A stretch of DNA of 64,000 nucleotides from an uncultured bacterium (GCA_964518765.1 CAZFJC010000001.1:11595-75594); one strand, 5' to 3'. Numbered from the stretch's first letter, positions 4,061-62,460 are shown. Notes: generated by a model from the sequence alone, not told the origin. Program-made: numbers and translations.

Positions 4061-4932
4061 GGTTGAAGCTGGCCTCGATGATGAAGCCGGTCGATTGGAT
4101 GGTTGGGGCATACCAGCTGCTGGTGGCCGCGGTGGCCCTGGTCTTCAGGGACAATTTCGACAACTGGGCCATGGTCTTCGTTCGCCATCTGCTGGCGCTG
4201 GCGGTGGTGGTCACCATCAGGGGGCTGGCCCTCAAATACCCCAGGAAATGGCTGGTGGTGGTCTCCGACTGGTACCTGGGGCTGTCGCTGCCGCTGGCCT
4301 ACACCTGGGCCGGGGATTTCGTCCACGCCATCTTTCCCTGGAAGATTGACCGGACGCTCCACGCCATCGACCTCTGGCTGTTAGGGGTCGACCCCACCGA
4401 CTTCCTCCAAGGTTTCGCCCGGCCGTGGCTCACCGACCTGATGCAGCTGTCGTACTGTTCTTTTTTCCTGCTGATCTTCTCCGGTTACCTGATCATCTAC
4501 CTCAAGGGGAACAGGCGGCATTACCAGAACTTCGAGATGGTGGTCCTCTCTGGGCTCTACGGCACCTACCTTTGGTTCATGCTGCTGCCGGCCCACAGCC
4601 CGCGCTTCATCACCTGCCCCGAGCTCATGCTTCAGGGGGGCAGGATCACCGACATCATTAACCACTTCCTGGCGGACAACGCCTATGCCGGCGGCGCCTT
4701 CCCCTCGGGGCACGGGGCGGTCTCGGTGTCCATCTGCGTCTTCATCTGGCGCTACGCCCGGCGCTGGGCACCGCTGTTCATTCTGCTGACGGCCATGCTG
4801 CTGGTGTCCACGGTCTACGGAGGATACCATTACGTCATCGACCTGCTGGCCGGCCTGGCCCACGGAGCCCTGGCCAGCCTGATGGCTGTCCTTTGGAACC
4901 GGGAATGGCGTCGTCGGGGATTGCTGTCCTGA
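4048..4932 (+). CDS. PAP2-family membrane phosphatase.
   Basis: Multiple TM helices; PAP2 signature FPSGHGAVS ... YGGYHYVIDLLAG. It overlaps the upstream gene by 13 nt; alternative ATG at 4078. Confidence 0.65.
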   Translation: MGRIRLKLASMMKPVDWMVGAYQLLVAAVALVFRDNFDNWAMVFVRHLLALAVVVTIRGLALKYPRKWLVVVSDWYLGLSLPLAYTWAGDFVHAIFPWKIDRTLHAIDLWLLGVDPTDFLQGFARPWLTDLMQLSYCSFFLLIFSGYLIIYLKGNRRHYQNFEMVVLSGLYGTYLWFMLLPAHSPRFITCPELMLQGGRITDIINHFLADNAYAGGAFPSGHGAVSVSICVFIWRYARRWAPLFILLTAMLLVSTVYGGYHYVIDLLAGLAHGALASLMAVLWNREWRRRGLLS

Positions 4933-10156: not shown

Positions 10157-10235
10157 CGGGGCGTAGCGCAGTCCGGTTTAGCGCACTTGACTGGGGGTCA
10201 AGGGGTCGGTGGTTCGAATCCACTCGCCCCGACCA
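10157..10235 (+). tRNA. tRNA-Pro (anticodon GGG), CCA encoded.
   Basis: Manual fold: acceptor CGGGGCG/CGCCCCG, D-arm GCGC/GCGC, anticodon stem CTTGA/TCAAG with loop CTGGGGG (anticodon GGG), T-arm GGTGG-TTCGAAT-CCACT, discriminator A, then CCA. Confidence 0.85.
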
Positions 10236-16619: not shown

Positions 16620-17147
16620 ATGGCCATCGATCTCAGGAAATACATCAGGGAGGTTCCGGATTTCCCCAAGAAGGGCATCGGGTTTAAGGATGTCACCACT
16701 CTGCTGGCCCATGCCAAGGCCTTCAGGGCCGTCATCGAAAGAATGGCCCGGGAGGTACGGGGGCTCAGGTTTGATTCGGTGGCGGTCATCGAATCACGGG
16801 GATTCGCCTTCGGCACCGCCCTGGCCTACAAGCTGCGAAAGGGGGCCATCCTGATTCGCAAGCCCAACAAGCTGCCGGCGAAGAAGATCAGGCAGGGCTA
16901 CGCCCTGGAATACGGGCGGGACTCTCTGGAGATGCACCGGGACGCGGTCAAAAAGGGGCAGGGGGTGCTGGTGGTCGACGATCTGCTGGCCACCGGCGGC
17001 ACCGCCCTGGCGGCGGCCAAGCTGGTGGAGAGGCTGGGAGGCAGGGTGGCCGGACTGGCCTTCGTGGTCGAACTAGACTTCCTGGGCGGACGCAGGAAGC
17101 TGAAGGGATATCAGGTAAGATCGTTGGTGCACTACTTCTCGGAATGA
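16620..17147 (+). CDS. apt: Adenine phosphoribosyltransferase.
   Basis: FPKKGIGFKDVTTLL ... VLVVDDLLATGGT PRPP-binding motif. Confidence 0.9.
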   Translation: MAIDLRKYIREVPDFPKKGIGFKDVTTLLAHAKAFRAVIERMAREVRGLRFDSVAVIESRGFAFGTALAYKLRKGAILIRKPNKLPAKKIRQGYALEYGRDSLEMHRDAVKKGQGVLVVDDLLATGGTALAAAKLVERLGGRVAGLAFVVELDFLGGRRKLKGYQVRSLVHYFSE

Positions 17148-17548
17148 GACGGCATTTGGAACGCTTGCGCCTATGGTTGCTGGCGGCGGCCATCATGGCC
17201 CTGGCGACCGAGGGGGGCGGGGCCCAGGATCTGGCGGCCGACACCGCGGACGTTTTCTACCAGGAATACCTAAACCGGCTGGTGGAGGACCTGCGTCTCA
17301 GCCAGATCCAGGACCTGGCCAGGAACTGGGGGGTGGTGGTCGGAGGACGTCAGCTCCGCATGAACCGCAGCTTCTGGGAGCAACGCCTCAGCCTCAACCT
17401 GTCCCTGGGGCTGTCGCCGGGCAGCGATTTCCAGACGGCCGTGGTCGAGTACCAGCTGCTTCCCCATCTGATGATGAGGGGCGAGGTGGGGCGGCGGGCG
17501 GACCACAGCGAGGCCTGGATCGATTTCATCTTCCATACCGAATATTGA
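17144..17548 (+). CDS. Small secreted hypothetical protein (signal peptide), immediately upstream of the HExxH-PD40-Omp85 protein.
   Basis: N-terminal RLRLWLLAAAIMALA signal-like segment; no recognisable domain. It overlaps the apt stop (ATGA). Confidence 0.4.
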   Translation: MRRHLERLRLWLLAAAIMALATEGGGAQDLAADTADVFYQEYLNRLVEDLRLSQIQDLARNWGVVVGGRQLRMNRSFWEQRLSLNLSLGLSPGSDFQTAVVEYQLLPHLMMRGEVGRRADHSEAWIDFIFHTEY

Positions 17549-17572
17549 GAACAGGATGGGGGGCGGTTTCCC

Positions 17573-20449
17573 ATGAGATTATATGGTGTTTTGATCGCGG
17601 CAATTGTCCTGGCCACCATGGCACCGGGGCTTCGGGCCCAGGACGGATATTTCGGCAAGAACAAGGTGAACTACCGAAACTTCGAATGGCGGCAGCTGGA
17701 GACCGAGAATTTCGTCGTCTACTACTACCAGGGTGGCGACAGCCTGGCCCTGATCGCCGCCCGCTTGGCCGAGGAGGCCGGAGGCCGCCTCTCGAAAATG
17801 CTGGACCACCGCCTCACCGGACGCGTCCCCCTGGTGGTCTACTCCTCACACAATGACTTCGCCCAGACCAACATCACCACCGAGCTCATCGAGGAATCGG
17901 TGGGGGGGTTCACCACCGTTTTCAAGAACCGGGTGGTGGTGCCCTTCACCGGGTCCTATGCCGACCTGAAGCACGTTATCGCCCACGAGCTGACGCACGC
18001 CTTCATGTTCGACCTGTTCTTCGGCAAATCTCTGGAATCCGTCCTCTCCCGGCAAAGCCTAGCGTCGGTGCCGCTGTGGTTCGCCGAGGGCTTGGCCGAG
18101 TACTGTTCTCGGGGCTGGGACCCGGAGGCCGAGATGATCATCAAGGACCTGGCAGTCAACCAGCGGCTGATACCCATAGACCAGCTGGACAACTACGGTG
18201 GAAGCTACCTGGTCTACAAGGAGGGCCAGGCGGTAATGCGTTACATCGCCGAACGCTACGGTCCGCGCAAGATCCCGGAGATGCTGCACATGTTGCGCAC
18301 TACCCACAGCATCGATCGCACCTGCCGCTCCCTGTTCGGACAGGGCCTGGAGAGGCTTTCCGAGGAGTGGATGCGGAGCGTCCAGCGCCAGTACTGGCCC
18401 GCTTTGTCCCAGCACCAGGAGGTCCCCGAGTTTGCCAAGCAGCTGACCGAGCACCAGAAGAACGAATCCTACTTTAACCTCAGTCCGGTGCTTTCGCCTC
18501 AGGGGGACAAGATCGCCTACATCTCGGATCAGGGAGGGTATGCCGGTATCTATGTGGTTTCCAGCATAGACGGGCACCGCATCAGCCATCTGGTAAAGGG
18601 CGAAAGGACCTCGATGTTCGAGGCCATGCACCTGGCCTGGTTCCGTGGCGGACTCTCCTGGTCGCCGGACGGGAGCTGGCTGGCCTTCGCCGCCAAATCG
18701 GCGACCGGGGACAGGCTCTATATCGTGGACACCGAGCGGGGGCGGGTGGTTAAAGAGCATCGGTTCGACCTAGACGGTATCTACTTTCCCAGCTGGTCGC
18801 CCACGGATAACCGCATAGCCATCTGCGGGATAAAGGATGGCAAGGCCGACCTCTATCTGACCGGGGCCTTCGAGGGAGGTCTCTTGAGGTTGACCGACGA
18901 TTTCTACGACGACCGCCATCCCTGCTGGTCCCCAGACGGCAGCCGCCTCCTGTTTTCGTCCGACCGGCCGTCCGAAGCCGACAGCAGCCAAACAGGCGGG
19001 CTTTCCTTTGGCCGATACCGCCTTTTCGTTCTGGCGGCGCCCTCCGATTCAACCGGCCAGGCGCCTGATACCCCGGCCTGTGTCACCCCCGATGAATGGG
19101 GCGCCAGCGATCCTTCATGGTCCGCCTCTGGCATCTGCTATGTCTCCACCTTCAACGGGGTCCCCAACATCTTCTATCTCGACGCGCCGGGAGGAACGCC
19201 GTCGTTGATGACCAACGCTCTGACCGGATGCCTCCAGCCCCACTGGTCGCGCGACGGAAGTCGGCTGGCCTTCATCGGTTACCACCAGACTGGGTGGAAC
19301 GTGAGCCTGATGAGGAACCCGCTGGAGTCAAAACCGGTATTAAAACCGGCCGAGGAGGATGCCGGCGACACCACCTGGCACCGGCCCCGGAGGTTCACCG
19401 TGGTTTTGGGCGACAGCACCGCCGGCACCAGCCGCAAGGCCTCAACGCGCTTCTCCATCGACTGGGCTAGGGGGTCCATCGGCTATAGCTCCCTGATTGG
19501 GTTGGCTGGACAGGCCGAGATCATGGTCACTGATATGCTGGGCAACCATCTGTTCGCCTGGCAGTCGGACATGGTGATCAATCTGGAAAACTCCGACTAC
19601 CAACTTACTTATTTCTACCTGCCGCGGCGCCTTGACTACGGGCTAAGCTATTACCAGGGACACAACTACTACCTGGCCAACAACGACGACATCGTCATCG
19701 AGAAAGTTAACGGAGTCCAGGGAATCGTCTCCTATCCCTTCAACAAATACCAGCGGGCCGATCTGGTGACCAGTTGGAACCACTACCGCCAGAGCTATTA
19801 CTACTACTCGCGTCCCGACGCCAGCCTGGACATCATCGTTCCCACCCTGATGCTGGTACACGACGACGCTCTTTGGGGCCACACCGGTCCGGTGGTGGGT
19901 CGGCGGTGGCTGGCGGCCGGGGAAGCCAGCCGCAGGGTCTGGGGGAGCGATCTGGACTTCGTCACCGGCTATCTCGACCTGCGCAACTACTGGAGGCTCT
20001 CCCGGCGCGTCAGCTTGGCCTCCAGGCTGATGGGGGGAGCCTCGGTGGGTCCGGATCCCCAGCGATTCTATCTCGGCGGCAGCCAGACCCTTAGGGGCTA
20101 CGGCTACGAGTCTTTGTACGGCACCAGGATGGCTCTGGGAAACCTGGAGCTGAGGATACCCTTTATCGACCGGATGGAGATGGCTTTTCCGCCACTTCAC
20201 ATCTACGGCATTAGGGGGGCATTCTTCTATGACATGGGCGCAGCCTGGAGCGACGACCGCGGCTTTCAGGGGGCCGCCCGGCCCGAGGACGCCCTGCTCC
20301 GCCTTCATGATCTGAAGGCCTCGGTGGGAACCGGGGTGCGCATCGGACTCTATCCCTTCGTTATCAAGCTCGACCTGGCCTGGCCCACCGACCTCTCCAG
20401 GCTGGAACGGAAGCCGGTGGTCTCGTTCGCCCTGGGGAGCGAGTACTAG
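17573..20449 (+). CDS. Outer-membrane multidomain protein: signal peptide, gluzincin (HExxH...E) metallopeptidase-like domain, PD40/TolB-like beta-propeller repeats and an Omp85-type C-terminal beta-barrel.
   Basis: Signal peptide (LIAAIVLATMAPGLRA). HELTHAF followed about 25 aa later by WFAEGLAEY. Repeated WSPDG/SPDG blades. The C-terminus (FYLGGSQTLRGYGYESL ... GNLELRIPF ... ASVGTGVRIGLYPFVIKLDLAWP) resembles the Omp85/bacterial surface antigen barrel. It is paralogous to 57702..60533. Confidence 0.6.
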   Translation: MRLYGVLIAAIVLATMAPGLRAQDGYFGKNKVNYRNFEWRQLETENFVVYYYQGGDSLALIAARLAEEAGGRLSKMLDHRLTGRVPLVVYSSHNDFAQTNITTELIEESVGGFTTVFKNRVVVPFTGSYADLKHVIAHELTHAFMFDLFFGKSLESVLSRQSLASVPLWFAEGLAEYCSRGWDPEAEMIIKDLAVNQRLIPIDQLDNYGGSYLVYKEGQAVMRYIAERYGPRKIPEMLHMLRTTHSIDRTCRSLFGQGLERLSEEWMRSVQRQYWPALSQHQEVPEFAKQLTEHQKNESYFNLSPVLSPQGDKIAYISDQGGYAGIYVVSSIDGHRISHLVKGERTSMFEAMHLAWFRGGLSWSPDGSWLAFAAKSATGDRLYIVDTERGRVVKEHRFDLDGIYFPSWSPTDNRIAICGIKDGKADLYLTGAFEGGLLRLTDDFYDDRHPCWSPDGSRLLFSSDRPSEADSSQTGGLSFGRYRLFVLAAPSDSTGQAPDTPACVTPDEWGASDPSWSASGICYVSTFNGVPNIFYLDAPGGTPSLMTNALTGCLQPHWSRDGSRLAFIGYHQTGWNVSLMRNPLESKPVLKPAEEDAGDTTWHRPRRFTVVLGDSTAGTSRKASTRFSIDWARGSIGYSSLIGLAGQAEIMVTDMLGNHLFAWQSDMVINLENSDYQLTYFYLPRRLDYGLSYYQGHNYYLANNDDIVIEKVNGVQGIVSYPFNKYQRADLVTSWNHYRQSYYYYSRPDASLDIIVPTLMLVHDDALWGHTGPVVGRRWLAAGEASRRVWGSDLDFVTGYLDLRNYWRLSRRVSLASRLMGGASVGPDPQRFYLGGSQTLRGYGYESLYGTRMALGNLELRIPFIDRMEMAFPPLHIYGIRGAFFYDMGAAWSDDRGFQGAARPEDALLRLHDLKASVGTGVRIGLYPFVIKLDLAWPTDLSRLERKPVVSFALGSEY

Positions 20450-23112: not shown

Positions 23113-24202
23113 GGAATCATTCTGGTGGCTGAGGCTGCTATCGGTGCCCGGCGTCGGCCCGGTGCGCTATCGGGCGCTGCTGTCACTTTTCGGAGGGCCG
23201 GAGCAGGTTTTCCAGACCCCAGCCAAAGAGCTTTGCCGGGCCGATCTGGTGGACGCCAAAACGGCCGGGGCCATCATCGGCCATCGTGATGAATCCTGGG
23301 CCCGGAACCAGGTGGAGGCCATGGCCAAAGCAGGCGCCAGCCTCCTGACCATTGACCAGCCAGATTATCCCGCCATGCTCAAGAAAACAGACGATGCTCC
23401 ACCGCTGCTTTTCGTCTGTGGAAAAGCGGACCTTAATGCCCAACCGGCGGTGGCCGTGGTCGGCTCGCGGCTGGCCACCCAGTATGGCAAGGCCACGGCC
23501 GAACTTTTGGGAAGGGAGCTCTCCTTGGCTGGGTTCCTGGTGGTCAGCGGCATGGCCCGCGGCATAGACAGCGCTGCTCACCGGGGGGCGTTGCAGGCCG
23601 GGGCCCCGACCGTAGCTGTGCTGGGGTGCGGGGTGGACGTGGTCTATCCGCCGGAGAACCGCAAGCTGCGAGACCGGATAGCCGAGTGCGGGGCGGTAAT
23701 CTCGGAGTACCCCATGGGCCAGGGCCCCATGGCCGGCCATTTTCCCAACCGCAACCGGATCATCACCGGGATGTCGTTGGGGGTGGTGGCGGTGGAGGCC
23801 CGGGCCGACAGCGGGGTTTTCTCCTCGGTGCGCTGGGCGGCCGATCAGGGGAGGGAGGTGTTCGCCGTGCCCGGCCCCATCAGCTCGGCGGCTAGCTCGG
23901 GCACCAACCGGCTCATCAAGCATGGGGCCAAATTGGTTCAAGGGGTGGGAGACATTATCGAGGAGCTGCAACCGCAGCTGGCCGGGATGGTCGGCGTTAA
24001 GAAGGCCGGCGGCTCGGTTTCCTTGGTCGGCAACGAGGGGCTGGTTTACGGCCAGCTCTCCGACCAGCCCTTACACGTCGACAGCCTGGCCCAAGGGTCC
24101 GGCCAAAGCGTGGCCGAGGTGTTGCGGACTCTGTTCGATCTGGAGATACGGGGGCTGGTTAAGCAGCTGCCGGGAAAGATGTATGTGAGGGTGCAAACAT
24201 GA
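23099..24202 (+). CDS. dprA: DNA-processing protein DprA (Smf).
   Basis: VVGSR ... GMARGIDSAAHRGAL ... VAVLGCGVD ... FPNRNRIITG. The ATG at 23099 overlaps the upstream stop. Confidence 0.85.
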   Translation: MRSPEESFWWLRLLSVPGVGPVRYRALLSLFGGPEQVFQTPAKELCRADLVDAKTAGAIIGHRDESWARNQVEAMAKAGASLLTIDQPDYPAMLKKTDDAPPLLFVCGKADLNAQPAVAVVGSRLATQYGKATAELLGRELSLAGFLVVSGMARGIDSAAHRGALQAGAPTVAVLGCGVDVVYPPENRKLRDRIAECGAVISEYPMGQGPMAGHFPNRNRIITGMSLGVVAVEARADSGVFSSVRWAADQGREVFAVPGPISSAASSGTNRLIKHGAKLVQGVGDIIEELQPQLAGMVGVKKAGGSVSLVGNEGLVYGQLSDQPLHVDSLAQGSGQSVAEVLRTLFDLEIRGLVKQLPGKMYVRVQT

Positions 24203-24388
24203 TGATCTGTTTACAGATTGCGGCGGCAATAGCATATGTTATCGTGATGCAGCCAGATGTTCAAGCGGGCATAAACAAGTATTCAAACAAACAATATCCT
24301 GATAGTTTGTACAGGGTAACTGAAAAGCAATATACACTTGACTCGATTTCAATAAAAATCATCCAAGTATAACCAAAAAAGGGAAAAT

Positions 24389-24424
24389 ATGCAACCGTAC
24401 CACATATTTGTCGCGCATGGATAA
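24389..24424 (+). CDS. 11-codon upstream ORF (MQPYHIFVAHG) translationally coupled to the low-GC gene.
   Basis: AAGGGA RBS 5 nt upstream; its stop TAA overlaps the downstream ATG as TAATG. Confidence 0.3.
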   Translation: MQPYHIFVAHG

Positions 24425-24969
24425 TGTTAGAGAAAAAAGGCAGGAATATACACACGAAATATTTCGATGATATAGATGCTGTCGGTTATAAATATGGGAT
24501 ATTCGTGCCAAGGGAACAACCCATAAATAATCATTTTCTTATCGTTAAAATCGGCGATTATGACGGACGCCTATTTATTATTGATAAGCGTGGCAATATT
24601 GATGATTTTCCTGGCGGACGGTTCTTTATTACCGATGACAAAAGATATTTGGTCACAGAACATAGTTCCGATTCAGATGACACCCTCACTGTTATAAAGT
24701 TATCTGATGGTGCGAAATATTTTTTAGTTGAGCTGCAACGATGTATCTGGCAATGGTACCGAAATGACGGTAAATATTTTTACACTTTGGCTTCATCTAA
24801 AGACGCCACAAAACGATGGCATGAGATATCTGACACAGTGTGTCTGCTAGATTTTAAAAACCGATGTTTATACCAAAGCCCTTCCTTATTGGCTAATGAT
24901 AAAAATAGTGTAAAAGTGCAATATTACTTTGATTTCAATGATTTAAAAGATTGTGAGTGTGAAAGGTAA
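24424..24969 (+). CDS. Orphan hypothetical protein (181 aa) encoded in a low-GC island (about 35% GC against about 62% in the flanks).
   Basis: Complete ORF with AT-rich codon usage. No signal peptide and no recognisable motif; Cys pair at the C-terminus (DCECER). Confidence 0.5.
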   Translation: MLEKKGRNIHTKYFDDIDAVGYKYGIFVPREQPINNHFLIVKIGDYDGRLFIIDKRGNIDDFPGGRFFITDDKRYLVTEHSSDSDDTLTVIKLSDGAKYFLVELQRCIWQWYRNDGKYFYTLASSKDATKRWHEISDTVCLLDFKNRCLYQSPSLLANDKNSVKVQYYFDFNDLKDCECER

Positions 24970-24971
24970 AA

Positions 24972-26084
24972 ATGGCCAAGGTCTCAATAATCAATTGTAA
25001 GACATACGAACCTGCGGAAGTAATAGCGGCAGTCAACCAAAGCATAAATATACTTGGCGGCATGTCCGCCTTCATCCGGCCCGGGCAGAAAGCGCTTCTC
25101 AAGCCCAACCTGCTCTCCGCCAAGAAACCCGAGGAGGCCATCACCACCCATCCGGCGGTCCTGGAGGCGGCCATCGTCCTGGTCAAGGAGGCAGGGGGCG
25201 TGCCGGTGGTGGGCGATAGCCCGGGCGGCAAGATATCGGACCTTCGGACCTACTGGGAGGCCACCGGCACCGCCGAGGCCTGCCGCCGGCAAGGGGCGGA
25301 GCTGGTCAGCTTCGAGAAATCTGGCGTTTACGAGAAAAGGATCGGCAACCGGAAGTATTACATCGCACGGCCGGTGCTGGACGCAGACGTTATCATCAAC
25401 ATCCCCAAGCTCAAGACCCACAGCCTGACGGTGCTCACCTGCACCGTCAAGAACATGTTCGGCGTCGTGCCCGGCATCCGCAAGTCCATGCACCACCGGG
25501 AGGCTCCCAAGCCGCGCGAGTTCTCCGGCCTGGTGGTCGATATCTTTTCGCTGGCCAGGCCCCACCTGAACATAGTCGACGCCATAGTCGGCATGGACGG
25601 GCCCGGGCCCTCGGCCGGCGATCCCAAGCAGCTGGGCTTCATCATGGCCGGGGCCGATGGGGTGGCGGTGGATGCCGCCGCCTCCCATCTGCTGGATTTG
25701 GATCCCTTTAAGGTCCCTACCACCCAGATCGCGCACCGGAGGGATCTGGGCGAAGGCGACATAAAAAGGATCGAATTGCTGGGCGAGGTGCCGCAGGTCA
25801 GAAAGGACTTCCGCTGGCCACCCTCGTGGATGTACCACCTGGTGCCGGGCGCGCTGGCCAAGGCCGGAGCCAGGCTCTTTTGGATAAGGCCGGAGATCGA
25901 TAGGCAGAAATGCGTCAACTGCGGGGCCTGCGTGGAGAGCTGTCCGGTAAGCGCTCTATCGCCTGCCGTAGGGGCGCCGGTCTTCAACTACCGGCTGTGC
26001 ATCAACTGTCTCTGCTGCCAGGAGATCTGCCCGGCCCACGCCATATCCCAGCGCAAGAGCCTGCTGGCCAGGCTGCTGAGATGA
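24972..26084 (+). CDS. DUF362-family protein with a C-terminal 2x[4Fe-4S] ferredoxin domain.
   Basis: C-terminal CVNCGACVESCP ... CINCLCCQEICP. Confidence 0.65.
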   Translation: MAKVSIINCKTYEPAEVIAAVNQSINILGGMSAFIRPGQKALLKPNLLSAKKPEEAITTHPAVLEAAIVLVKEAGGVPVVGDSPGGKISDLRTYWEATGTAEACRRQGAELVSFEKSGVYEKRIGNRKYYIARPVLDADVIINIPKLKTHSLTVLTCTVKNMFGVVPGIRKSMHHREAPKPREFSGLVVDIFSLARPHLNIVDAIVGMDGPGPSAGDPKQLGFIMAGADGVAVDAAASHLLDLDPFKVPTTQIAHRRDLGEGDIKRIELLGEVPQVRKDFRWPPSWMYHLVPGALAKAGARLFWIRPEIDRQKCVNCGACVESCPVSALSPAVGAPVFNYRLCINCLCCQEICPAHAISQRKSLLARLLR

Positions 26085-27088: not shown

Positions 27089-28798
27089 ATGCGCAAAGTA
27101 GAGGACAAGATCAACCGGGCGCTGGGCAGGGAGCCGGTGGACCTGCTGTTGAAGAACGCCCAACTGGTCAACGTCATCTCGGGTGAGATATACAAAACGA
27201 ACCTGGCGGCGGTCGACGGGCGGATCGTAGGCTTCGGGGAATACGAGAGCCACCGGACGGTGGACTTAGAGGGATCCTACCTGGCCCCCAGCTTCATCGA
27301 CGGCCACATCCACATCGAGAGCTCGATGCTGACGGTGACCGAGTTCGCCCGGGCGGTGGTGCCGCTGGGGACCGGGGCGGTCATCGCCGACCCCCACGAG
27401 TTCGCCAACGTCCTGGGCATGGACGGCATCCGCTACGTGCTGGAGGAGCGCGAGGGACTGCCCCTGGACGTCTTTGTGATGCTGCCCTCGTGCGTGCCGG
27501 CCACCGACCTGGAGACCAGCGGCGCCCGGCTTTCGGCCTACGACCTCCACCTGCTGGTCAGCGAGCCGAGGGTGGTGGGGGTGGGAGAGATGATGAACTA
27601 CCCCGGGGTGCTTTTCGCCGACAAGGACATCCTCAATAAGCTCCACGTGGGCCGGGACAAGCAGATCGACGGCCACGCCCCGGGCCTGACCGGCAAGGCC
27701 CTCAACGCCTATGTTCTGGCCGGTCCGCGCTCCGACCACGAGTGCATCGGTCTGGAGGAGGCCAGGGAGAAGCTGAGGCTGGGGATGCACATCCACCTGC
27801 GCCAGGGATCGTCGGAGAAGAACATGGCCGCCCTGCTGCCGCTGATCAACCCGCAGAACTCCCGCAACTTCAGCTTCGTCACCGATGACCGGCACCCGGC
27901 CTCGCTCATCAGCGAGGGGCACATCGACAACAACGTCCGGATCGCCATCGCCGCCGGGGTGGACCCGGTGACCGCCATCCAGATCGCCACCATCAACACC
28001 GCCCGCTTCTACCGCCTTAAGAACGTGGGGGCCCTGCTGCCGCGCTACTGGGCGGATATGGTGGTCTTCGACGACCTGCACGACGTCAGGCCGCGGATGG
28101 TCTTCAAAAAGGGCGAGCTGGTGGCCCAGGACGGCAAGGCCCTGTTTCAGGCGCAGGACATCGACCATACCTACATCCGGGGCACCATGAACGTCCAGTG
28201 GCTTTATGAGTCCACCTTCGCCGTGCCGGCCAAAGGCGAGCGGATAAGGATCATGCAGATGGTTCCCGGCCAGATCGTCACCCGGCATATCAGCGATCAG
28301 GCCAAGGTGGTGGACGGCCTGGCTGTGTCCGACACCGAGCGGGATATCATCAAGTTTGCCGTCATCGAGCGGCATCGGGCGGCCAAGAACGTGGGGCTGG
28401 GTTTCGTCCGCGGCTTTGGCATCAAGCGAGGGGCACTCGCCTCCTCGGTGGCTCACGATAGCCACAACCTGGGGGTGCTGGGGGCCAACGACGCCGACAT
28501 GCTTAAGGCCGCCATCAGGGTGATCGAGATGGGCGGGGGGCAGGCGGTGGTGGCCGACGGCCAGGTGCTGGCCGAGCTGGCCCTGCCGGTGGCCGGCCTG
28601 GTGAGCGACCAGAACCTGGAACACGTATCGCAAAGGGTGAGGGAGCTGAACCAAGCGGCCAAAGACGTGGGCTGCATACTGCCGGACCCGTTCGCGGCCT
28701 TAAGCTTTCTACCTTTGGTGCCCATTCCCGAGCTCAGGCTGACCGATAAAGGTTTGGTTGATGCCAAGGAATTTAAGCTTATTGACTTATTTTATTAA
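27089..28798 (+). CDS. ade: Adenine deaminase.
   Basis: SFIDGHIHIESSML ... amidohydrolase metal-binding motifs; length about 570 aa. Confidence 0.8.
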   Translation: MRKVEDKINRALGREPVDLLLKNAQLVNVISGEIYKTNLAAVDGRIVGFGEYESHRTVDLEGSYLAPSFIDGHIHIESSMLTVTEFARAVVPLGTGAVIADPHEFANVLGMDGIRYVLEEREGLPLDVFVMLPSCVPATDLETSGARLSAYDLHLLVSEPRVVGVGEMMNYPGVLFADKDILNKLHVGRDKQIDGHAPGLTGKALNAYVLAGPRSDHECIGLEEAREKLRLGMHIHLRQGSSEKNMAALLPLINPQNSRNFSFVTDDRHPASLISEGHIDNNVRIAIAAGVDPVTAIQIATINTARFYRLKNVGALLPRYWADMVVFDDLHDVRPRMVFKKGELVAQDGKALFQAQDIDHTYIRGTMNVQWLYESTFAVPAKGERIRIMQMVPGQIVTRHISDQAKVVDGLAVSDTERDIIKFAVIERHRAAKNVGLGFVRGFGIKRGALASSVAHDSHNLGVLGANDADMLKAAIRVIEMGGGQAVVADGQVLAELALPVAGLVSDQNLEHVSQRVRELNQAAKDVGCILPDPFAALSFLPLVPIPELRLTDKGLVDAKEFKLIDLFY

Positions 28799-28861
28799 TT
28801 TCTTAATTATCAAAGTATTATAATATATCATAAAACCATTGCTTTAAATAAATTATAGCTA

Positions 28862-30385
28862 ATGAAAAGCATTAAAATAAGCTTTTACCTTAATGATCAT
28901 GCCGTAACCTATCAGATCGAGCCCGGACAGACGGCCCTGGACCTGATCAGGAACGGTTTGGGTCTCACCGGGACCAAGGAGGGGTGTTCCGAAGGCGATT
29001 GCGGAGCCTGCACCGTGGCCCTGGGAACCATGGAGAATGGGCGGCTGGCCTACCGGGCGGTTGCCTCCTGCATTCTGCCGGCAGCCAAGCTGCATGGCCG
29101 ACATGTCATAACCATCGAGGGATTGGCCCGAGGTGATAAACTGCACCCCATCCAGCAGGCGGTGCTGGAGGAGCACGCCACCCAGTGCGGGTTCTGCACG
29201 CCGGGGATCGTCATGTCTCTCTTCTGCCTCTTCGCCGGGAATACCAGACCAACGGTCGAGGAGCTGAACGCCTCGCTGGAGGGAAACCTCTGCCGGTGCA
29301 CTGGGTACGACTCCATCAGGAAGGCGGCGCTGCGAGTCTCCGATAATTTGGCAAATAAGCTTCTCTCATGCAGCAGGGATATACTGCCTACCTATATAAA
29401 AATGGTAGAAAGGGGGTTAAAGAAAGCAGGCGAGTGCCAAGCGAATGGGTCGGAGACGGCCGATAGGGCAGGGATTTCGGAGTACCATCAGCCTGAGACG
29501 CTACCCCAGCTGTTCGCCGTATTGAGGAAATTCAGGTCCTGCAATCAGTACCGGCTAATCTCCGGCGGCACCGATGTCATGGTAGATCGAAACATAAAGA
29601 AGATCTATCCGGAGCACTTGGTCGACATCTCCGGCATTCAGTCTCTAAGAGGCATTAAGGTGGCCGGCAAGGCCATGTCCATCGGCGCCAACGTCACCCT
29701 TTCGAAGCTGGTTGAGAGCCCGGTGGTCAGGCGTCGGCTTCCGGTCCTGGCCCAAACAGTCGCGCAGATGGCCTCGGCCCAGATACGCAATACCGCCACC
29801 CTGGCCGGCAATCTGGCCAACGCCTCGCCCATCGCCGACGGCAGCGTCCTGATGCTGGCCCTGGGGGCCAGGCTGAAACTGGTATCGCCCAGGGGCTCCC
29901 GGACCGTGTCCATCGACGATTTCTATAAATCCTACCGCCATACCTGCCTGGGGGAGCGCGAGATTATTGCTAGGATCGAGGTGCCCATGGACGGCTCATT
30001 GTGCAGCTTCATCAAGAGCGCCAAGCGCAGGTCGGTGGACATCTCCACGGTAAACTCGGCCGTCAAGCTGAAATTATCAAAGGGTCGGATAACTGAAACC
30101 CGCATCGCCCTGGGCGGCGTTGCCCCGACGCCGGTGTTGGCTCTGAAGGCCGCGGCCAGCCTGGCCGGCAAGGGGTTGACAGAGGAAACGATCGTCAGGA
30201 CCGCCGACATGGCCGCCTCCGAATGCACGCCCATCAGCGACGTCCGCGGCGGGGCGGATTACAGAAAGATGCTGGTGAGGAACCACGTGCTCAGGCATCT
30301 GAGAAGCATAGCGTTGAACCTAACCCCAAATCCCGCTGCCTCGAGGGAAGGGGAAGCCAGGGTTAGATCGGGGGAAAACAGATGA
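28862..30385 (+). CDS. Molybdenum hydroxylase small/medium subunit fusion: [2Fe-2S] ferredoxin domain plus FAD-binding (CoxM/XdhA-like) domain.
   Basis: CSEGDCGACTV ... QCGFCTPG ... CRCTGY iron-sulfur motifs, then GGTD FAD-binding and a CO-dehydrogenase-flavoprotein-like C-terminus. Confidence 0.8.
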   Translation: MKSIKISFYLNDHAVTYQIEPGQTALDLIRNGLGLTGTKEGCSEGDCGACTVALGTMENGRLAYRAVASCILPAAKLHGRHVITIEGLARGDKLHPIQQAVLEEHATQCGFCTPGIVMSLFCLFAGNTRPTVEELNASLEGNLCRCTGYDSIRKAALRVSDNLANKLLSCSRDILPTYIKMVERGLKKAGECQANGSETADRAGISEYHQPETLPQLFAVLRKFRSCNQYRLISGGTDVMVDRNIKKIYPEHLVDISGIQSLRGIKVAGKAMSIGANVTLSKLVESPVVRRRLPVLAQTVAQMASAQIRNTATLAGNLANASPIADGSVLMLALGARLKLVSPRGSRTVSIDDFYKSYRHTCLGEREIIARIEVPMDGSLCSFIKSAKRRSVDISTVNSAVKLKLSKGRITETRIALGGVAPTPVLALKAAASLAGKGLTEETIVRTADMAASECTPISDVRGGADYRKMLVRNHVLRHLRSIALNLTPNPAASREGEARVRSGENR

Positions 30386-32676
30386 AGCCGGAACCCTTCC
30401 ATATCGCCGGGCCCCTGCACGTCACCGGCCGGTCCCGCTTCGTGACGGACGAGCCCAGGCCCGAGGGGATGTGTTTCCTAAAAATATTTTCCAGCCCCCA
30501 TGCCCGGGCCAGGATACTGAGACTGGACACCTCGGAGGCCGAAAGGGCACCGGGCATCCTCGGCGTATTCACCCACCGGGACATCCCCGGCCATAACCAG
30601 ATAGGCCACGCCGCGCTCGATGAGCCGCTGTTCCCGGTCGAGGAGACGGCCTTCTTCGGGCAGCCGATGGCTATCGTCGCCGGCGAAACCGAGGAGGCGG
30701 CCGAGCGGGGGATAAATCTCATCAAGGCCGAGTTTCAGGAGCTGAAGCCGGTGCTGTCAGTCGAAAAGGCCTTAGCTAGAGGGCTTCTTTATGCGCCGGA
30801 GCGCCGCATTGAGGCCGGCGATGTGGAGAGGGGGTTTGCCGAGTCCGAGCACATTCTCGAGGGCAGAATGGAGACCGGGGCCCAGGAGCACGTCTACCTG
30901 GAGACCCAGGCCTGCCGGGCCGTCCCGGGCGAGGATGGCGAGGTCATCCTATACAGCGCCACCCAAAGTACGGCCGAGGTTCAGGAAGTGGCGGCCCGGA
31001 TTCTGGGGGTGGATCGGAAGGACGTGACGGTGGACGTGCGCCGGCTGGGAGGTGCCTTCGGAGGCAAGGAGCGGGCGGCTACCATCTGGGCTTGCCTGGC
31101 GGCGCTGGCCTGCTACAAGCTGAGGAGGCCGGTGGAGCTGTCGCTGTCGCGCCTGGAGGATATGTCTTGGACAGGCAAAAGGCACCCGTACGTCATCAAA
31201 TACCGGGCCGGTTTCGGCGGCGACGGTAGGATCAAAGCGCTTTCGATGGAACTGAACTCCAACGGCGGAGCCTACACCGACCTATCCATGGCCATTCTGG
31301 AGCGCTCCATGCTCCATGCCGACAACGCCTATTTCATCCCCAACGCCAGGATAATAGGCCGGGCCTGCCGGACCAACCTGCCCCCCAACACCGCCTTTCG
31401 GGGCTTTGGGGCGCCCCAGGGGATATTCGCCATCGAATACGTGATGGAAGGGATCGCCCGAAAGCTCGGTCTGGACCCGCTGGAGGTCCGCAAACGCAAC
31501 TCCTATGCCGAGGGGCAGCCTACGCCCTACGGCCAGCCGGTCCATGAAGCGGCGGTAACCGAGATGCTCGAGAGGTTGGAAAAGAAATCGAGGTATCAGG
31601 ACCTTCGGAAAAGCGTGGAGGAATTCAACCTGAACAACTCGGAGCTAAGGCGCGGCATCGGAGTGGTGCCGGTCAAGTTCGGCATCTCGTTCACCTCGGC
31701 CTTCCTTAACCAGGGCTCGGCCCTGGTCCTGGTCTACGGCGACGGAACAGTTTCGCTGTCCCACGGCGGCATCGAGATGGGCCAGGAGGTGAACACCAAG
31801 GTTGCCCAAGTGGTGTCCCGAGAGCTGGGGGTGGGGCTGGAAAGCATCAGGGTGGAGACTTCGAACACCAAGCGCACCGCCAACGCCTCACCTACCGCCG
31901 CCTCGACCGGGGCCGATATCAACGGCCACGCCGCTAGAGATGCGGCCAGTCAGATCAGGGAGCGGCTGGCGCCGGTGGCGGCCGAGATGCTGTCGAAAAA
32001 ATGGGGAACGAGTTTCCCTGCCAACGGGATAGTGTTCGAGGATGACAGAGTGTTCTCCAGGGATAACCCCGAGAAATCGATATCCTTCGGCGAGCTGGCC
32101 CACCAGGCTTACATGGACAGGATCGACCTCTGCGCCCACGGATTCTACGCCACCCCCGGGGTGTATTTCGACCGGGAGAGGGGGAAGGGGAATCCCTTTT
32201 ACTACTTCGTGTTCGGCAGTTGTCTGGTCGTGGCCGAGGTGGACGTGATGACTGGCGCCAGCCGTTTGGTCGAAGTCCACATAGTACACGAAACGGCCAA
32301 GAGCCTGAACCGGGCCATCGATCGGGGACAGATAGAGGGGGCCTTCATCCAGGGCTACGGCTGGTGCACCATGGAGGAGATCAGGTGGGACGACAAGGGG
32401 CGCTACCTAGCGGTGACGCCGTCCACCTACAAGATACCAACCATCCGCGACCTACCGGAGGTCTTCGATATCGAGATGGTGGAAACTAAAAGGAAGCACG
32501 CCAGCGTTTTTGGTTCCAAAGCCATTGGAGAGCCACCGCTCATCTACGGCGAGGCCGCCTGGTTCGCCGTCAAGGAAGCCATCGAGTCGCTTTCGGGGCA
32601 TAGGAAGGTGGCCGACCTGGCGCACCCAGCTACGCCCGAGGCGGTGCTGGCAGCTATCTGGAGAATGCGCTCTTGA
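30382..32676 (+). CDS. Xanthine dehydrogenase/aldehyde oxidase family molybdopterin-binding large subunit.
   Basis: The roughly 760-aa MoCo-binding subunit pattern: GGAFGGK, E-x-x-W catalytic-region motifs, and GEPPLIYGEAA near the C-terminus. Confidence 0.85.
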   Translation: MKPEPFHIAGPLHVTGRSRFVTDEPRPEGMCFLKIFSSPHARARILRLDTSEAERAPGILGVFTHRDIPGHNQIGHAALDEPLFPVEETAFFGQPMAIVAGETEEAAERGINLIKAEFQELKPVLSVEKALARGLLYAPERRIEAGDVERGFAESEHILEGRMETGAQEHVYLETQACRAVPGEDGEVILYSATQSTAEVQEVAARILGVDRKDVTVDVRRLGGAFGGKERAATIWACLAALACYKLRRPVELSLSRLEDMSWTGKRHPYVIKYRAGFGGDGRIKALSMELNSNGGAYTDLSMAILERSMLHADNAYFIPNARIIGRACRTNLPPNTAFRGFGAPQGIFAIEYVMEGIARKLGLDPLEVRKRNSYAEGQPTPYGQPVHEAAVTEMLERLEKKSRYQDLRKSVEEFNLNNSELRRGIGVVPVKFGISFTSAFLNQGSALVLVYGDGTVSLSHGGIEMGQEVNTKVAQVVSRELGVGLESIRVETSNTKRTANASPTAASTGADINGHAARDAASQIRERLAPVAAEMLSKKWGTSFPANGIVFEDDRVFSRDNPEKSISFGELAHQAYMDRIDLCAHGFYATPGVYFDRERGKGNPFYYFVFGSCLVVAEVDVMTGASRLVEVHIVHETAKSLNRAIDRGQIEGAFIQGYGWCTMEEIRWDDKGRYLAVTPSTYKIPTIRDLPEVFDIEMVETKRKHASVFGSKAIGEPPLIYGEAAWFAVKEAIESLSGHRKVADLAHPATPEAVLAAIWRMRS

Positions 32677-45373: not shown

Positions 45374-45828
45374 CCTACGTGAACGGCCGAAGGCACCAGT
45401 TGAACGAACGTGACCTGGGAAAGAGCCTTCTTGTTTATCTACGGGAAGACCTGAACCTGACCGGGACCAAGAACGGCTGCGGCATCGGGGTCTGCGGGGC
45501 CTGCACCGTTCTACTGAACAGCCGGCCGGTGCGCTCCTGCCGCTTGAAGGTAGCCGAAATTGTCGACAGCAACGTCTTGACCATAGAGGGCCTATCTCGG
45601 GAGGATGGCACGCTCCACCCCCTTCAACAAGCCTTCCTCGATGCCGGCGCCGTCCAGTGCGGTTTCTGTACCCCGGGCATGGTGCTGACCGCCCACGCCT
45701 TTCTCATACGGAACCCGAGCCCCAGCCGAGACCAGATCCGGCGTGCTATATCCGGGAACCTCTGCCGGTGCACTGGTTACCAGCAGATCATAGACGCCAT
45801 CGAGGCGGCGGCCCCTCATTATCGTTAA
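45367..45828 (+). CDS. [2Fe-2S]-binding small subunit of the molybdenum hydroxylase.
   Basis: CGIGVCGACTV ... QCGFCTPG ... CRCTGY. Confidence 0.85.
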   Translation: MVTYVNGRRHQLNERDLGKSLLVYLREDLNLTGTKNGCGIGVCGACTVLLNSRPVRSCRLKVAEIVDSNVLTIEGLSREDGTLHPLQQAFLDAGAVQCGFCTPGMVLTAHAFLIRNPSPSRDQIRRAISGNLCRCTGYQQIIDAIEAAAPHYR

Positions 45829-45851
45829 GAAGAGTGTTAGACCAAGCTTCT

Positions 45852-62295: not shown

Positions 62296-62460
62296 AGACA
62301 CACTATTCGTTTTTTGCAGGTGTATGGAAAAAAATGCACCTATTTTTATTTATTCACAACATACCAAAGGAATGTATGTTGTAATGCAAGAAGTTAGAAT
62401 TCATTATTTTGGCATAGAATATGCTTAGTGTATTTTTAAACTTATATAAAGGATTAGATT

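What the first reader, a model, noticed from the sequence alone, without database searches (positions are those of the whole stretch)
17144..20449. Giant outer-membrane protein fusing a gluzincin metalloprotease, a TolB-like propeller and an Omp85 barrel (first copy)
A single 958-aa secreted protein carries an HExxH motif plus a downstream Glu (HELTHAF ... WFAEGLAEY) and multiple WSPDG-type propeller blades. Its C-terminus has the hallmark segments of the Omp85/bacterial-surface-antigen barrel (xLRGY, GNLELRIPF, GTGVRIGLYPF...LDLAWP). That would place a zinc protease and a peptide-binding propeller on a 16-strand barrel in the outer membrane. I do not recognise this architecture as a described family. 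A small signal-peptide protein (17144..17548) is encoded immediately upstream and translationally coupled.
Basis: partly seen in the sequence, partly recalled or inferred. Interest (0 to 1): 0.7.

Follow-up and report, generated by a model that had tools for sequence, protein, structure and literature searches.

The report
Protease-propeller Omp85 barrel plus mini-TamB
The gene is real and joins a zinc protease, a TolB-like propeller and a BamA-type membrane barrel, but this architecture was catalogued in 2014 and is widespread; the less expected part is the small upstream gene, which resembles the barrel-docking tail of TamB.

Summary
ORF 17573..20449 encodes a 958-aa exported protein. It has a Peptidase_MA_2 gluzincin domain (HELTH plus Glu172, invariant in 50 homologues), a six-bladed TolB-like PD40 propeller and a POTRA-less 16-strand Omp85 barrel. 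The AF2 model has pLDDT 82.7, and the best structural matches are TolB, TamA and BamA.

The claim that the architecture is undescribed does not hold. It is the "WD40-like" Omp85 subfamily of Heinz & Lithgow (2014), whose Table S3 already lists aminopeptidase/collagenase-type hits. More than 2,145 homologues turned up, across TA06, Zixibacteria, Ignavibacteria, Marinimicrobia, Calditrichota, Bacteroidota, Eisenbacteria and other phyla. No function has been tested.

The most likely function (inferred) is a periplasm-facing, outer-membrane-anchored protease for envelope or outer-membrane-protein quality control. Its neighbours recur as tamB, rseP/bamA and mlaE.

The small ORF (17144..17548) is not overlapping-coupled to the big gene: there is a 24-nt gap. 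It belongs to a small family of 78-174-aa proteins, most with a recognisable signal peptide, whose C-termini resemble the TamB/DUF490 tail. One member passes Pfam's cut-off. In three lineages these genes lie next to an Omp85 gene. It is a candidate stand-alone Omp85-docking partner, and I found no description of this.

The parts
17144..17548 (+). Small ORF, 134 aa: signal-peptide-like N-terminus (residues 1-27), a predicted amphipathic helix (about 35-61), then beta-strand-prone segments ending in ...WIDFIFHTEY. It is a candidate stand-alone TamB(DUF490)-tail-like Omp85-docking protein.
   Evidence: ORF. The family comprises 45 clusters of 84-138 aa in the TA06/Edwardsbacteria clade. Sixteen columns are invariant in 42 sequences. 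The gene is syntenic upstream of the orthologue in L001, L090, L091 and L093. [quoted passage not shown]
17279..17545 (+). Region of the small protein (residues 46-134) that aligns to the last roughly 87 positions of Pfam TamB (PF04357 positions 295-381 of 381).
   Evidence: One search gives E 0.0085 and 15.8 bits, below the 22.4-bit cut-off. Family member P0167 scores 25.0 bits, above the cut-off. hhalign against 10 TamB C-termini gives P 2.1e-4 over 88 columns; a reversed control gives P 0.47.
17549..17572 (+). 24-nt spacer between the two ORFs, with a purine-rich AGGATGGGGGG stretch.
   Evidence: Sequence read.
17573..20449 (+). Large ORF, 958 aa plus stop: a peptidase-propeller-Omp85 outer-membrane protein.
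17573..17638 (+). Signal peptide (residues 1-22, MRLYGVLIAAIVLATMAPGLRA|QD).
   Evidence: Sequence. The model shows a helix at 2-15 followed by a low-confidence stretch. The cleavage site is inferred.
17687..18463 (+). Mainly helical gluzincin domain (residues 39-297; Pfam Peptidase_MA_2 covers 72-270).
   Evidence: There are weak matches to M9 collagenases that align HExxH, WxEGxAEY and YxxG.
17984..17998 (+). HELTH zinc-binding/catalytic motif (H138, E139, H142).
   Evidence: Invariant in 50 of 50 sequences.
18086..18088 (+). Glu172 in WFAEGLAEY, the presumed third zinc ligand, 29 residues after H142.
   Evidence: Invariant in 50 of 50 sequences. The spacing is 29 in 107 of the 116 homologues (full-length and partial) that matched the looser spacing pattern.
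18464..19318 (+). Six-bladed TolB-like PD40 beta-propeller (residues 298-582).
19319..19450 (+). Poorly conserved linker (residues 583-626). No POTRA domain is present.
   Evidence: Mean column identity is 0.18, against 0.45-0.53 for the domains. There is no POTRA hit.
19451..20446 (+). 16-strand Omp85-type beta-barrel (residues 627-958), ending in ...ALGSEY.
20093..20101 (+). Loop-6 R841-G842-Y843 motif.
   Evidence: R in 48 of 50, G in 49 of 50, Y/F in 47 of 50.
20225..20239 (+). F885-x-D887-x-G889 motif on a late barrel strand.
   Evidence: F, D and G are each invariant in 50 of 50 sequences.

Best explanation
SHOWN. 17573..20449 encodes a Sec-type exported outer-membrane protein of the 'WD40(-peptidase)-Omp85' subfamily. 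It has a collagenase-like (Peptidase_MA_2) gluzincin domain with an intact HExxH...E site, a six-bladed TolB-like propeller, a variable linker, and a POTRA-less 16-strand Omp85 barrel carrying the loop-6 RGY and FxDxG motifs. The family is conserved over its full length across many FCB-group phyla.

INFERRED. As in every Omp85 protein of known structure, the segment N-terminal to barrel strand 1 lies in the periplasm. The barrel would therefore anchor the protease-propeller module under the outer membrane. The propeller would hold or filter unfolded polypeptide, as in tricorn, DPP-IV or prolyl-oligopeptidase-type enzymes, and the zinc site would cut it. The likely job is housekeeping envelope-protein or outer-membrane-protein quality control, analogous in logic to BepA working at BAM. 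This fits the recurrent neighbourhood with tamB, rseP/bamA and mlaE.

INFERRED. The small ORF 17144..17548 encodes an exported protein that corresponds to the last membrane-embedded strands (plus a preceding amphipathic helix) of TamB's DUF490. Cryo-EM shows that this part of TamB docks by pairing its C-terminal beta-signal strand with strand 1 of an Omp85 barrel. The small protein probably docks in the same way onto the barrel encoded next to it, forming a hybrid barrel that regulates or stabilises an open state.
For: Domain calls exceed the Pfam cut-offs. H138, E139, H142, E172 and Y215 are invariant, as is an invariant loop E108/G111-G112-F113-T114. The AF2 model has pLDDT 82.7 and pTM 0.80, with 16 barrel strands. 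Structural matches are BamA, TamA and TolB.

Conservation runs at about 40% identity across phyla over the full length, and the gene sits in a housekeeping cluster (surE-pcm-acyP-apt-X-rsmD-coaD-obg-dprA). Both suggest a core function rather than a niche function.

Context: TamA-TamB-X-UvrD in Latescibacteria and related loci, and TamB within 6 kb upstream in 10 of 80 loci. X lies directly after rseP, the usual bamA slot, in Eisenbacteria. mlaE lies directly downstream in 5 loci. The window's own paralogue overlaps the bamA start.

Small ORF: it is conserved with the orthologue across the clade. TamB C-terminal hits were found in 9 of 11 members tested, one of them above Pfam's cut-off. hhalign gives P 2.1e-4 against a control of 0.47. 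Distant members lie directly after POTRA+Omp85 genes in two further lineages. DUF490 has been described as an Omp85-docking domain that forms a stable hybrid barrel (PMC13119328).
Against: No experiment exists for any member of the family. Topology was not tested, because the model coordinates could not be inspected for membrane side. Gene neighbourhoods are heterogeneous: aroA, RNase R, radA and tgt are as common as envelope genes. The tamB linkage is concentrated in a few related lineages, so the loci are not independent. The peptidase subfamily is unresolved: M9 and M61 hits fall below their cut-offs, and the PDB profile search reaches only E 0.17. For the small ORF, the window protein itself is below the Pfam TamB cut-off. 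An exhaustive profile search found no TamB-length protein at E<=1e-3. The AF2 monomer model is poor, with pLDDT 50. No complex was modelled. Most phyla carrying the large gene lack the small one, so it cannot be essential to the family's core function.
Confidence: 0.5

Rival explanations
1. The protein is an assembly factor rather than a degradative protease. It would be a BamA-BamB-like fusion, as Heinz & Lithgow suggested, that inserts or scaffolds outer-membrane proteins, with the peptidase-like domain acting mainly as a binding or chaperone module.
For: The barrel keeps the Omp85 motifs used by insertases. The gene occupies the bamA slot after rseP in Eisenbacteria, and its paralogue is coupled to bamA in the window.
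Against: There is no POTRA domain. The zinc triad, plus a Tyr, is invariant over phylum-level divergence, which is hard to explain without catalysis. Genomes carrying this protein also carry a canonical BamA.
Confidence: 0.15
2. The protease is surface-exposed. The barrel would export its own N-terminal passenger, as proposed for type Vd/PlpD, for extracellular protein degradation and peptide harvesting.
For: There is a precedent in passenger-Omp85 fusions (PlpD), discussed in PMC4104836. The catalytic domain is collagenase-like. The organism has peptide and amino-acid catabolism genes nearby, including M29 aminopeptidase, amino-acid permease and prolyl oligopeptidase.
Against: PlpD-type proteins keep a POTRA between passenger and barrel; this protein has none. 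A folded six-bladed propeller is an unlikely passenger. The TolB-like propeller is a periplasmic module. Strong full-length conservation and housekeeping context are atypical of nutrient-scavenging exoenzymes. FCB bacteria normally export such enzymes by T9SS, and no T9SS C-terminal domain is present.
Confidence: 0.12
3. The protein is a Tol-Pal-like envelope tether or cell-wall enzyme. The propeller would bind a Pal/OmpA-type partner or peptidoglycan, and the peptidase would trim stem peptides or lipoprotein links.
For: The propeller is closest to TolB. TolB binds Pal through its propeller (established knowledge).
Against: The TolB N-terminal domain is absent, and the TolB equivalog score of 99 bits is far below the 343-bit cut-off. 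No pal, ompA or tolQRA genes recur next to the gene.
Confidence: 0.06
4. The small ORF is only a clade-specific exported protein with a generic beta-signal-like C-terminus. Under this view it has no homology to TamB and no physical link to the barrel.
For: The window protein scores below Pfam's TamB cut-off. No long TamB was recovered in the exhaustive search. hhalign probability is only 22-46%. Other TA06 lineages have an unrelated hydrophobic small gene at the same position.
Against: TamB is the only Pfam family hit, always at the profile's C-terminal end, in 9 of 11 members tested, with one above the cut-off. Every one of the three lineages examined places the gene directly against an Omp85 gene.
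Confidence: 0.3

Closest known systems
WD40-Omp85 ('WD40-like') subfamily of the Omp85 superfamily (Heinz & Lithgow 2014, PMC4104836)
   Same: PD40/WD40-like propeller fused N-terminally to a POTRA-less Omp85 barrel. TolB is the best structural match for the propeller. An aminopeptidase or collagenase-like region lies at the N-terminus (their Table S3). The subfamily occurs in Calditrichota, Cloacimonadota, Chlorobi-group organisms and Bacteroidota.
   Different: Nothing architectural differs. The window protein comes from an uncultured TA06/Edwardsbacteria-like lineage that was not sampled in 2014. The published description emphasises the propeller ('BamA-BamB-like fusion') and does not discuss conservation of the zinc site, the gene context or the small partner.
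TamA-TamB translocation and assembly module
   Same: An Omp85 barrel is encoded next to a protein whose C-terminus looks like the DUF490 tail, ending in a beta-signal-like strand with a terminal aromatic residue. In other phyla the full-length tamB gene lies directly upstream of the orthologue.
   Different: The barrel protein has no POTRA domains and carries a protease and a propeller instead. The partner is 134 aa with a cleavable-looking signal peptide. It has no inner-membrane anchor, chorein domain or periplasm-spanning beta-taco, so it cannot bridge membranes or carry lipid.
BepA (M48 zinc protease acting at the BAM complex)
   Same: The proposed logic is the same: a periplasmic HExxH metalloprotease positioned at an Omp85 machine for quality control of outer-membrane proteins.
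   Different: The peptidase family and fold differ, and the accessory domain is a propeller rather than TPR. Here the protease is covalently fused to its own barrel. There is no sequence relationship. This comparison rests on my own knowledge of BepA and was not tested here.
Tricorn, DPP-IV and prolyl-oligopeptidase type propeller-gated peptidases
   Same: A PD40-type propeller is combined with a peptidase in one polypeptide. Precomputed Pfam hits to Tricorn_N and Tricorn_2nd, and a DPPIV_N hit, fall on the propeller.
   Different: Those enzymes are serine peptidases and are soluble. Here the catalytic domain is a gluzincin placed N-terminal to the propeller, and the protein is barrel-anchored.
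PlpD / type Vd patatin-Omp85 fusions and the 'Metallo' (PF00149) Omp85 subfamily
   Same: An enzyme domain is fused N-terminally to an Omp85 barrel.
   Different: PlpD has a patatin lipase plus POTRA. The 'Metallo' subfamily carries a calcineurin-like phosphoesterase domain, not an HExxH peptidase.

Membership tests
Omp85 superfamily (PF01103) | Pfam Omp85 score above the gathering cut-off | tested here: met
   59.7 bits against 24.
Omp85 superfamily (PF01103) | C-terminal 16-stranded beta-barrel | tested here: met
Omp85 superfamily (PF01103) | Loop-6 (V/I/L)RG(F/Y) motif and the (F/G)xDxG motif on a late strand (motif definitions from my own knowledge of BamA/TamA/FhaC structures) | tested here: met
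   L840-R841-G842-Y843 is at least 90% conserved. F885, D887 and G889 are invariant in 50 sequences.
BamA / TamA / TamL | N-terminal POTRA domains; NCBIfam equivalog score | tested here: not met
   There is no POTRA hit. BamA scores 48.6 against 297, TamA 34.4 against 625, and TamL 28 against 400.
WD40-Omp85 subfamily (Heinz & Lithgow 2014) | PD40/WD40-like propeller N-terminal to a POTRA-less Omp85 barrel, with TolB as closest propeller structure | tested here: met
   compared with the domain profiles in their Table S2.
WD40-Omp85 subfamily (Heinz & Lithgow 2014) | Aminopeptidase or collagenase-like region ahead of the propeller (their Table S3) | tested here: met
   Peptidase_MA_2 at 46.5 bits, with weak M9 and M61 hits. 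Their Phyre2 hits 1z5h, 4kxd, 4fgm and 4ar1 are shown.
WD40-Omp85 subfamily (Heinz & Lithgow 2014) | Direct sequence clustering with the listed members (for example H1XQ58, B0VIY2, D0MEQ5) | not tested
   UniProt sequences were not retrievable with these tools. The support is indirect only: full-length homologues occur in Caldithrix, Calditrichales and Cloacimonas lineages.
Gluzincin metallopeptidases (clan MA(E)) / Peptidase_MA_2 | HExxH plus a downstream Glu ligand, conserved across the family; Pfam PF13485 above cut-off | tested here: met
Gluzincin metallopeptidases (clan MA(E)) / Peptidase_MA_2 | Zinc binding and peptidase activity | not testable with these tools
   Needs biochemistry.
M9 collagenase / M1 aminopeptidase / M61 | Family HMM above cut-off | tested here: not met
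   Peptidase_M9 scores 16.0 against 26 and Peptidase_M61 15.6 against 22. There is no Peptidase_M1 hit at E<=1. The best PDB profile hit is Vibrio collagenase 7wss at E 0.17.
TolB | Full-length TolB (N-terminal TolA-binding domain plus propeller) at equivalog score | tested here: not met
   TIGR02800 scores 99.4 bits against 343, and the best-scoring stretch falls in the propeller part of the model.
TamB / DUF490 (small ORF) | PF04357 above the gathering cut-off | tested here: inconclusive
   The window protein scores 15.8 bits against 22.4. Family member P0167 scores 25.0 bits. Seven other members give E 6e-4 to 8.5e-3, always at profile positions about 295-381 of 381.
TamB / DUF490 (small ORF) | Inner-membrane anchor, chorein-like N-terminus and long beta-taco (1,250 aa or more) | tested here: not met
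   The protein is 134 aa and the family spans 78-174 aa. Only length classes of 1,250 aa or more are reported for DUF490 proteins (PMC13119328). Sequences under 200 aa were excluded from the 2015 TamB survey (PMC4494059).
TamB / DUF490 (small ORF) | C-terminal beta-signal-like strand ending in an aromatic residue, and a gene adjacent to an Omp85 partner | tested here: met
   The terminal ...EY is invariant. Adjacency to Omp85 genes is seen in three lineages.
Type Vd secretion (PlpD) | Patatin passenger plus POTRA plus barrel | tested here: not met
   There is no patatin or POTRA hit.

The most novel reading that the evidence does not exclude
Stand-alone 'mini-TamB' proteins form a previously unnoticed class of Omp85 partners. 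They consist of a signal peptide, an amphipathic helix and the last few DUF490 strands, with no lipid bridge. They would insert their beta-signal strand at strand 1 of a neighbouring Omp85 barrel to make a permanent hybrid barrel. In this window the partner is the protease-propeller Omp85, so the pair would be a self-contained outer-membrane proteolytic machine whose lateral gate is held open or regulated by the small subunit. In other lineages the same module would pair with TamA/BamA-like barrels.
Probability: 0.3. Interest if true: 0.7.

Novelty: new member of a known kind. Interest (0 to 1): 0.45.

Why it matters
The large protein belongs to one of the Omp85 subfamilies that has been named but never studied. 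It is nonetheless conserved across a large part of the FCB group, often in two copies per genome. Showing that its zinc site is invariant, and that it keeps company with tamB, rseP/bamA and mlaE, gives a concrete and testable idea: a barrel-anchored periplasmic quality-control protease in phyla where outer-membrane biogenesis is poorly known. The small upstream gene suggests that the DUF490 tail can exist as an independent protein next to different Omp85 barrels. Cryo-EM recently showed that tail to be an Omp85-docking element. Earlier surveys discarded sequences under 200 aa, so this class would have been missed.

Tried and rejected
- The AFDB (afdb50) fold search, intended to link the model to named UniProt entries, was unavailable.
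- AF2 of the small protein alone gave pLDDT 50 and was not used for fold search. A two-chain prediction was not possible with the tools.
- The exact 958-aa sequence is not on record in the contig index. The source was traced through the small protein instead.
- phmmer and jackhmmer with the small protein against the ORFs of 89 fetched loci found it only in the closest relatives. The exhaustive library search found no TamB-length relative.
- The small gene upstream of the orthologue in TA06 DG_24 and E3J62 proved to be an unrelated hydrophobic protein.
- The metagenome scan for distant small-protein relatives returned a single locus. A first attempt failed for lack of a conserved stretch.
- Promoter and terminator scans around the locus were at background level.
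- Full-text searches for PD40 + Omp85 and for Peptidase_MA_2 found no functional study.
- A chimeric or mis-assembled ORF was considered and rejected, because full-length homologues are abundant.

Full report
**1. Observation**

The window carries a 958-aa ORF at 17573..20449 (+) and a 134-aa ORF at 17144..17548 (+).

Pfam places three families above their curated cut-offs on the large protein:
- Peptidase_MA_2, residues 72-270, 46.5 bits.
- PD40, four stretches, 75.5 bits.
- Omp85, residues 782-955, 59.7 bits.

NCBIfam gives only partial, sub-threshold matches to TolB (best-scoring stretch in the propeller part of the model), BamA, TamA, TamL and flagellinolysin. The protein is therefore none of these.

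The small ORF starts with ATG overlapping the stop of the upstream apt gene (ATGA). It ends 24 nt before the large ORF, with a purine-rich spacer between them. The two are operonic but not overlapping-coupled.

**2. Is the protease domain likely to be active?**

I aligned 50 homologues at 40-82% identity to the window protein. H138, E139, H142, W169, E172 and G173 are invariant. So are Y215 and a loop upstream of the HExxH motif, E108/G111-G112-F113-T114.

All 118 full-length homologues inspected keep HExxH and the EG-motif Glu. The strict motif pattern matched 114 of them. In a looser pattern run over all 120 listed homologues, the spacing is 29 residues in 107 of the 116 that matched.

The nearest solved sequences are Vibrio-type M9 collagenases. 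They align HExxH, WxEGxAEY and a YxxG segment, but only at E 0.17. The M9 and M61 Pfam hits are also below their cut-offs.

The domain is therefore a gluzincin of the Peptidase_MA_2 type with collagenase-like features. Its subfamily is unresolved.

**3. Is there a barrel?**

AlphaFold2 with the 50-sequence alignment gives mean pLDDT 82.7 and pTM 0.80. The model shows:
- a helical N-domain, residues 39-297;
- 23 strands at 301-581, arranged as a six-bladed propeller;
- a linker;
- 16 long strands at 627-954.

The loop-6 RGY motif and the FxDxG motif are conserved, and the protein ends in an aromatic residue. No POTRA domain is detected. The second refutation criterion (no barrel) is also not met. 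The barrel is about 330 aa, not about 250 aa.

**4. Is the architecture new?**

No. Heinz & Lithgow 2014 (PMC4104836) divide the Omp85 superfamily into ten bacterial subfamilies, one of which is 'WD40-Omp85 / WD40-like'.
- Their Table S2 lists PF07676 + PF01103 profiles for it.
- Their text notes TolB as the closest propeller structure and likens the proteins to a BamA-BamB fusion.
- Their Table S3 lists, for members from Caldithrix, Rhodothermus, Cloacimonas, Chloroherpeton, Sorangium and others, a 'best aminopeptidase hit' (1z5h, 4kxd, 4fgm, 3qnf) or collagenase (4ar1).

A 2024 paper summarises the subfamily as having 'divergent WD40 and peptidase domains' (PMC11358297). A 2024 TAM review still treats these families as uncharacterised (PMC11014939). 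I found no functional study.

I could not retrieve the 2014 UniProt entries to cluster them directly with the window protein. That single membership feature is untested.

**5. Distribution**

The word-indexed search returned more than 2,145 hits. The top 120 are nearly all full-length, at 36-90% identity. Where a source name is given, it reads 'PD40 domain-containing protein', 'BamA/TamA family outer membrane protein' or 'Tol biopolymer transport system component'. The named organisms are TA06, Edwardsbacteria, Zixibacteria, Latescibacteria, Eisenbacteria and Cloacimonas.

These come from Zixibacteria, Ignavibacteria, WOR-3, Marinimicrobia, Stahlbacteria, Calditrichota, KSB1, Bacteroidota, Chlorobiota/Kapaibacteria, Eisenbacteria, Fibrobacterota and a few bins labelled Spirochaetes.

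The window's own lineage is uncultured. The closest named relatives are TA06 at 62% identity.

Conservation by region, as mean identity to the window protein per column, is N-domain 0.53, propeller 0.45, barrel 0.45 and linker 0.18.

**6. Gene context**

In the window and its relatives the gene sits in a co-directional housekeeping run: surE-pcm-LDcluster4-acyP-apt-small-X-rsmD-coaD-obg-HEAT-dprA.

Elsewhere the neighbours vary, but envelope genes recur:
- TamA-TamB-X-UvrD in Latescibacteria and in loci L013, L074, L077 and L085.
- TamB-RNase R-X in Ignavibacteria-type loci. Together these put TamB within 6 kb upstream in 10 of the 80 scanned loci, plus the separately fetched Latescibacteria locus L007.
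- X directly after rseP, the classical bamA position, in four Eisenbacteria loci.
- mlaE directly downstream in 5 loci and lptF/G in 1.

aroA (8 loci), radA (8) and tgt (4) are equally common, and related loci are not independent. The context is therefore suggestive of outer-membrane homeostasis, not proof.

The window's second copy (57702..60533) is a full-length distant paralogue (hhalign probability 99.7%, 789 columns). It keeps HEYAH and LEGMAVYAE. Its stop overlaps the GTG that opens the signal peptide of a canonical BamA.

**7. The small ORF**

The small ORF is conserved upstream of the orthologue throughout the clade whose large proteins are at least about 57% identical. It defines a family of 45 clusters of 84-138 aa, with 16 invariant columns.

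Evidence that it resembles the TamB tail:
- Its only Pfam hit is the extreme C-terminal end of TamB (PF04357 positions 295-381 of 381). The score is below the cut-off for the window protein (15.8 bits against 22.4). All four close members tested give the same hit (best E 6e-4).
- An exhaustive profile search of 1.84 billion representatives found only 12 proteins at E<=1e-3. Eleven of them are 78-174 aa and matched to their very C-terminus. None has TamB length.
- Of seven more distant members tested, five hit the same TamB region as their only Pfam family and two hit nothing. One of the five, P0167, scores 25.0 bits, above the curated cut-off.
- A profile-profile comparison of the broadened family with ten TamB C-termini gives P 2.1e-4 over 88 columns, ending flush at the terminal EY. 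A reversed control gives P 0.47.

Evidence from gene position: the distant members lie directly against Omp85 genes.
- In a Calditrichaceae genome the small gene starts inside the 3' end of a 527-aa POTRA+Omp85 gene.
- In a second lineage it follows a POTRA+Omp85 gene, with a SurA-like PPIase further upstream.

Published background:
- Cryo-EM and in vivo cross-linking (PMC13119328) show that the DUF490 C-terminal beta-signal strand pairs with TamA strand 1, and that six TamB strands complete a stable hybrid barrel. The authors call DUF490 an Omp85-docking domain and report only length classes of 1,250 aa or more.
- The 2015 TamB survey removed sequences under 200 aa (PMC4494059).

My reading, at about 55-60% confidence, is that the small ORF encodes a stand-alone docking tail that binds the barrel encoded next to it.

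Caveats:
- The monomer AF2 model is poor, and no complex could be modelled.
- Most phyla carrying the large gene lack the small one.
- Other TA06 lineages carry an unrelated hydrophobic small gene at that position.

**8. Mechanism**

Shown: the domain composition, the conserved catalytic and barrel motifs, the predicted fold, the distribution and the context.

Inferred: the topology. The N-terminal region should be periplasmic because strand 1 of every Omp85 barrel of known structure begins in the periplasm, a 16-strand barrel places both termini on the same side, and TolB-like propellers are periplasmic modules.

Also inferred: the role. The protein would be a barrel-anchored, propeller-gated zinc protease for envelope or outer-membrane-protein quality control, comparable in logic to BepA at BAM.

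Rival explanations are a non-proteolytic assembly factor, a surface-exposed PlpD-like protease, and a Tol-Pal-like tether. Each is weighed in the rival-explanations section.

**9. Verdict**

The protein is a new member of a subfamily that was named in 2014 but has never been characterised. The part that appears undescribed is the TamB-tail-like mini-protein encoded beside it.

Noticed in passing
window 57702..60533 (+) and 60529..62295 (+): The second copy (943 aa) is a full-length distant paralogue (hhalign probability 99.7%, E 1.7e-25, 789 columns). It keeps HEYAH and LEGMAVYAE but lacks the invariant EESVGGFT loop, and its C-terminal region is not detected by the Omp85 HMM. Its TGA stop overlaps a GTG that opens the signal peptide (VKPILLAALQAAAFSSLAPALG) of a canonical BamA (POTRA x3 + Omp85), so it appears translationally coupled to bamA. 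The listed BamA ORF start at 60289 is probably too far upstream.
   Followed up: partly
L094 4001..4405; L095 796..1239; L096 about 3900..4336: Distant relatives of the small ORF (P0168, P0171 type; 134-147 aa) lie immediately after POTRA+Omp85 genes, overlapping their 3' ends in L094 and L095. This is the position normally held by tamB. A SurA-like PPIase lies upstream in L096.
   Followed up: partly
L003/L004/L005 5570..6004 and L092 4585..5001: In other TA06 lineages (DG_24, E3J62) the orthologue is preceded, with overlapping stop and start, by a different small hydrophobic protein of 126-144 aa. It has no Pfam hit and is unrelated to the TamB-tail-like family.
   Followed up: no
L009, L069, L071, L075 (Eisenbacteria): The orthologue sits directly after rseP in the uppS-cdsA-dxr-rseP run, the slot usually occupied by bamA. 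Other Eisenbacteria loci (L077, L085) have a copy after tamB instead, which suggests two paralogues per genome with different partners.
   Followed up: partly
window residues 23-40 and 98-115 of the 958-aa protein (17639..17692; 17864..17917): Two segments are extremely conserved (FGKNKVxYxxFxW right after the signal peptide; QTN...EExVGGFTxxFKNR), yet they have the lowest model confidence (pLDDT below 50). They may be flexible substrate- or partner-binding elements. The second lies about 25-30 residues upstream of HExxH, a position reminiscent of the GxMEN strand of M1 aminopeptidases (a comparison from my own knowledge).
   Followed up: no
window 27089..32676 and 43100..47945: Purine-catabolism genes (adenine deaminase; two sets of xanthine-dehydrogenase-type subunits) and a prolyl oligopeptidase lie here. 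Almost every gene in the 64-kb window is on the + strand.
   Followed up: no
window 10157..10235: The single tRNA-Pro(GGG) overlaps the listed start (TTG at 10187) of the 715-aa amino-acid permease ORF, so the real start of that gene is probably further downstream.
   Followed up: no
window 62300..64000 and 24001..26000: These stretches have lower G+C (0.49 and 0.52, against about 0.61 for the window). The first is ORF-poor after bamA and has no Rfam match at gathering threshold. No skp-like or mini-TamB ORF follows bamA there.
   Followed up: partly
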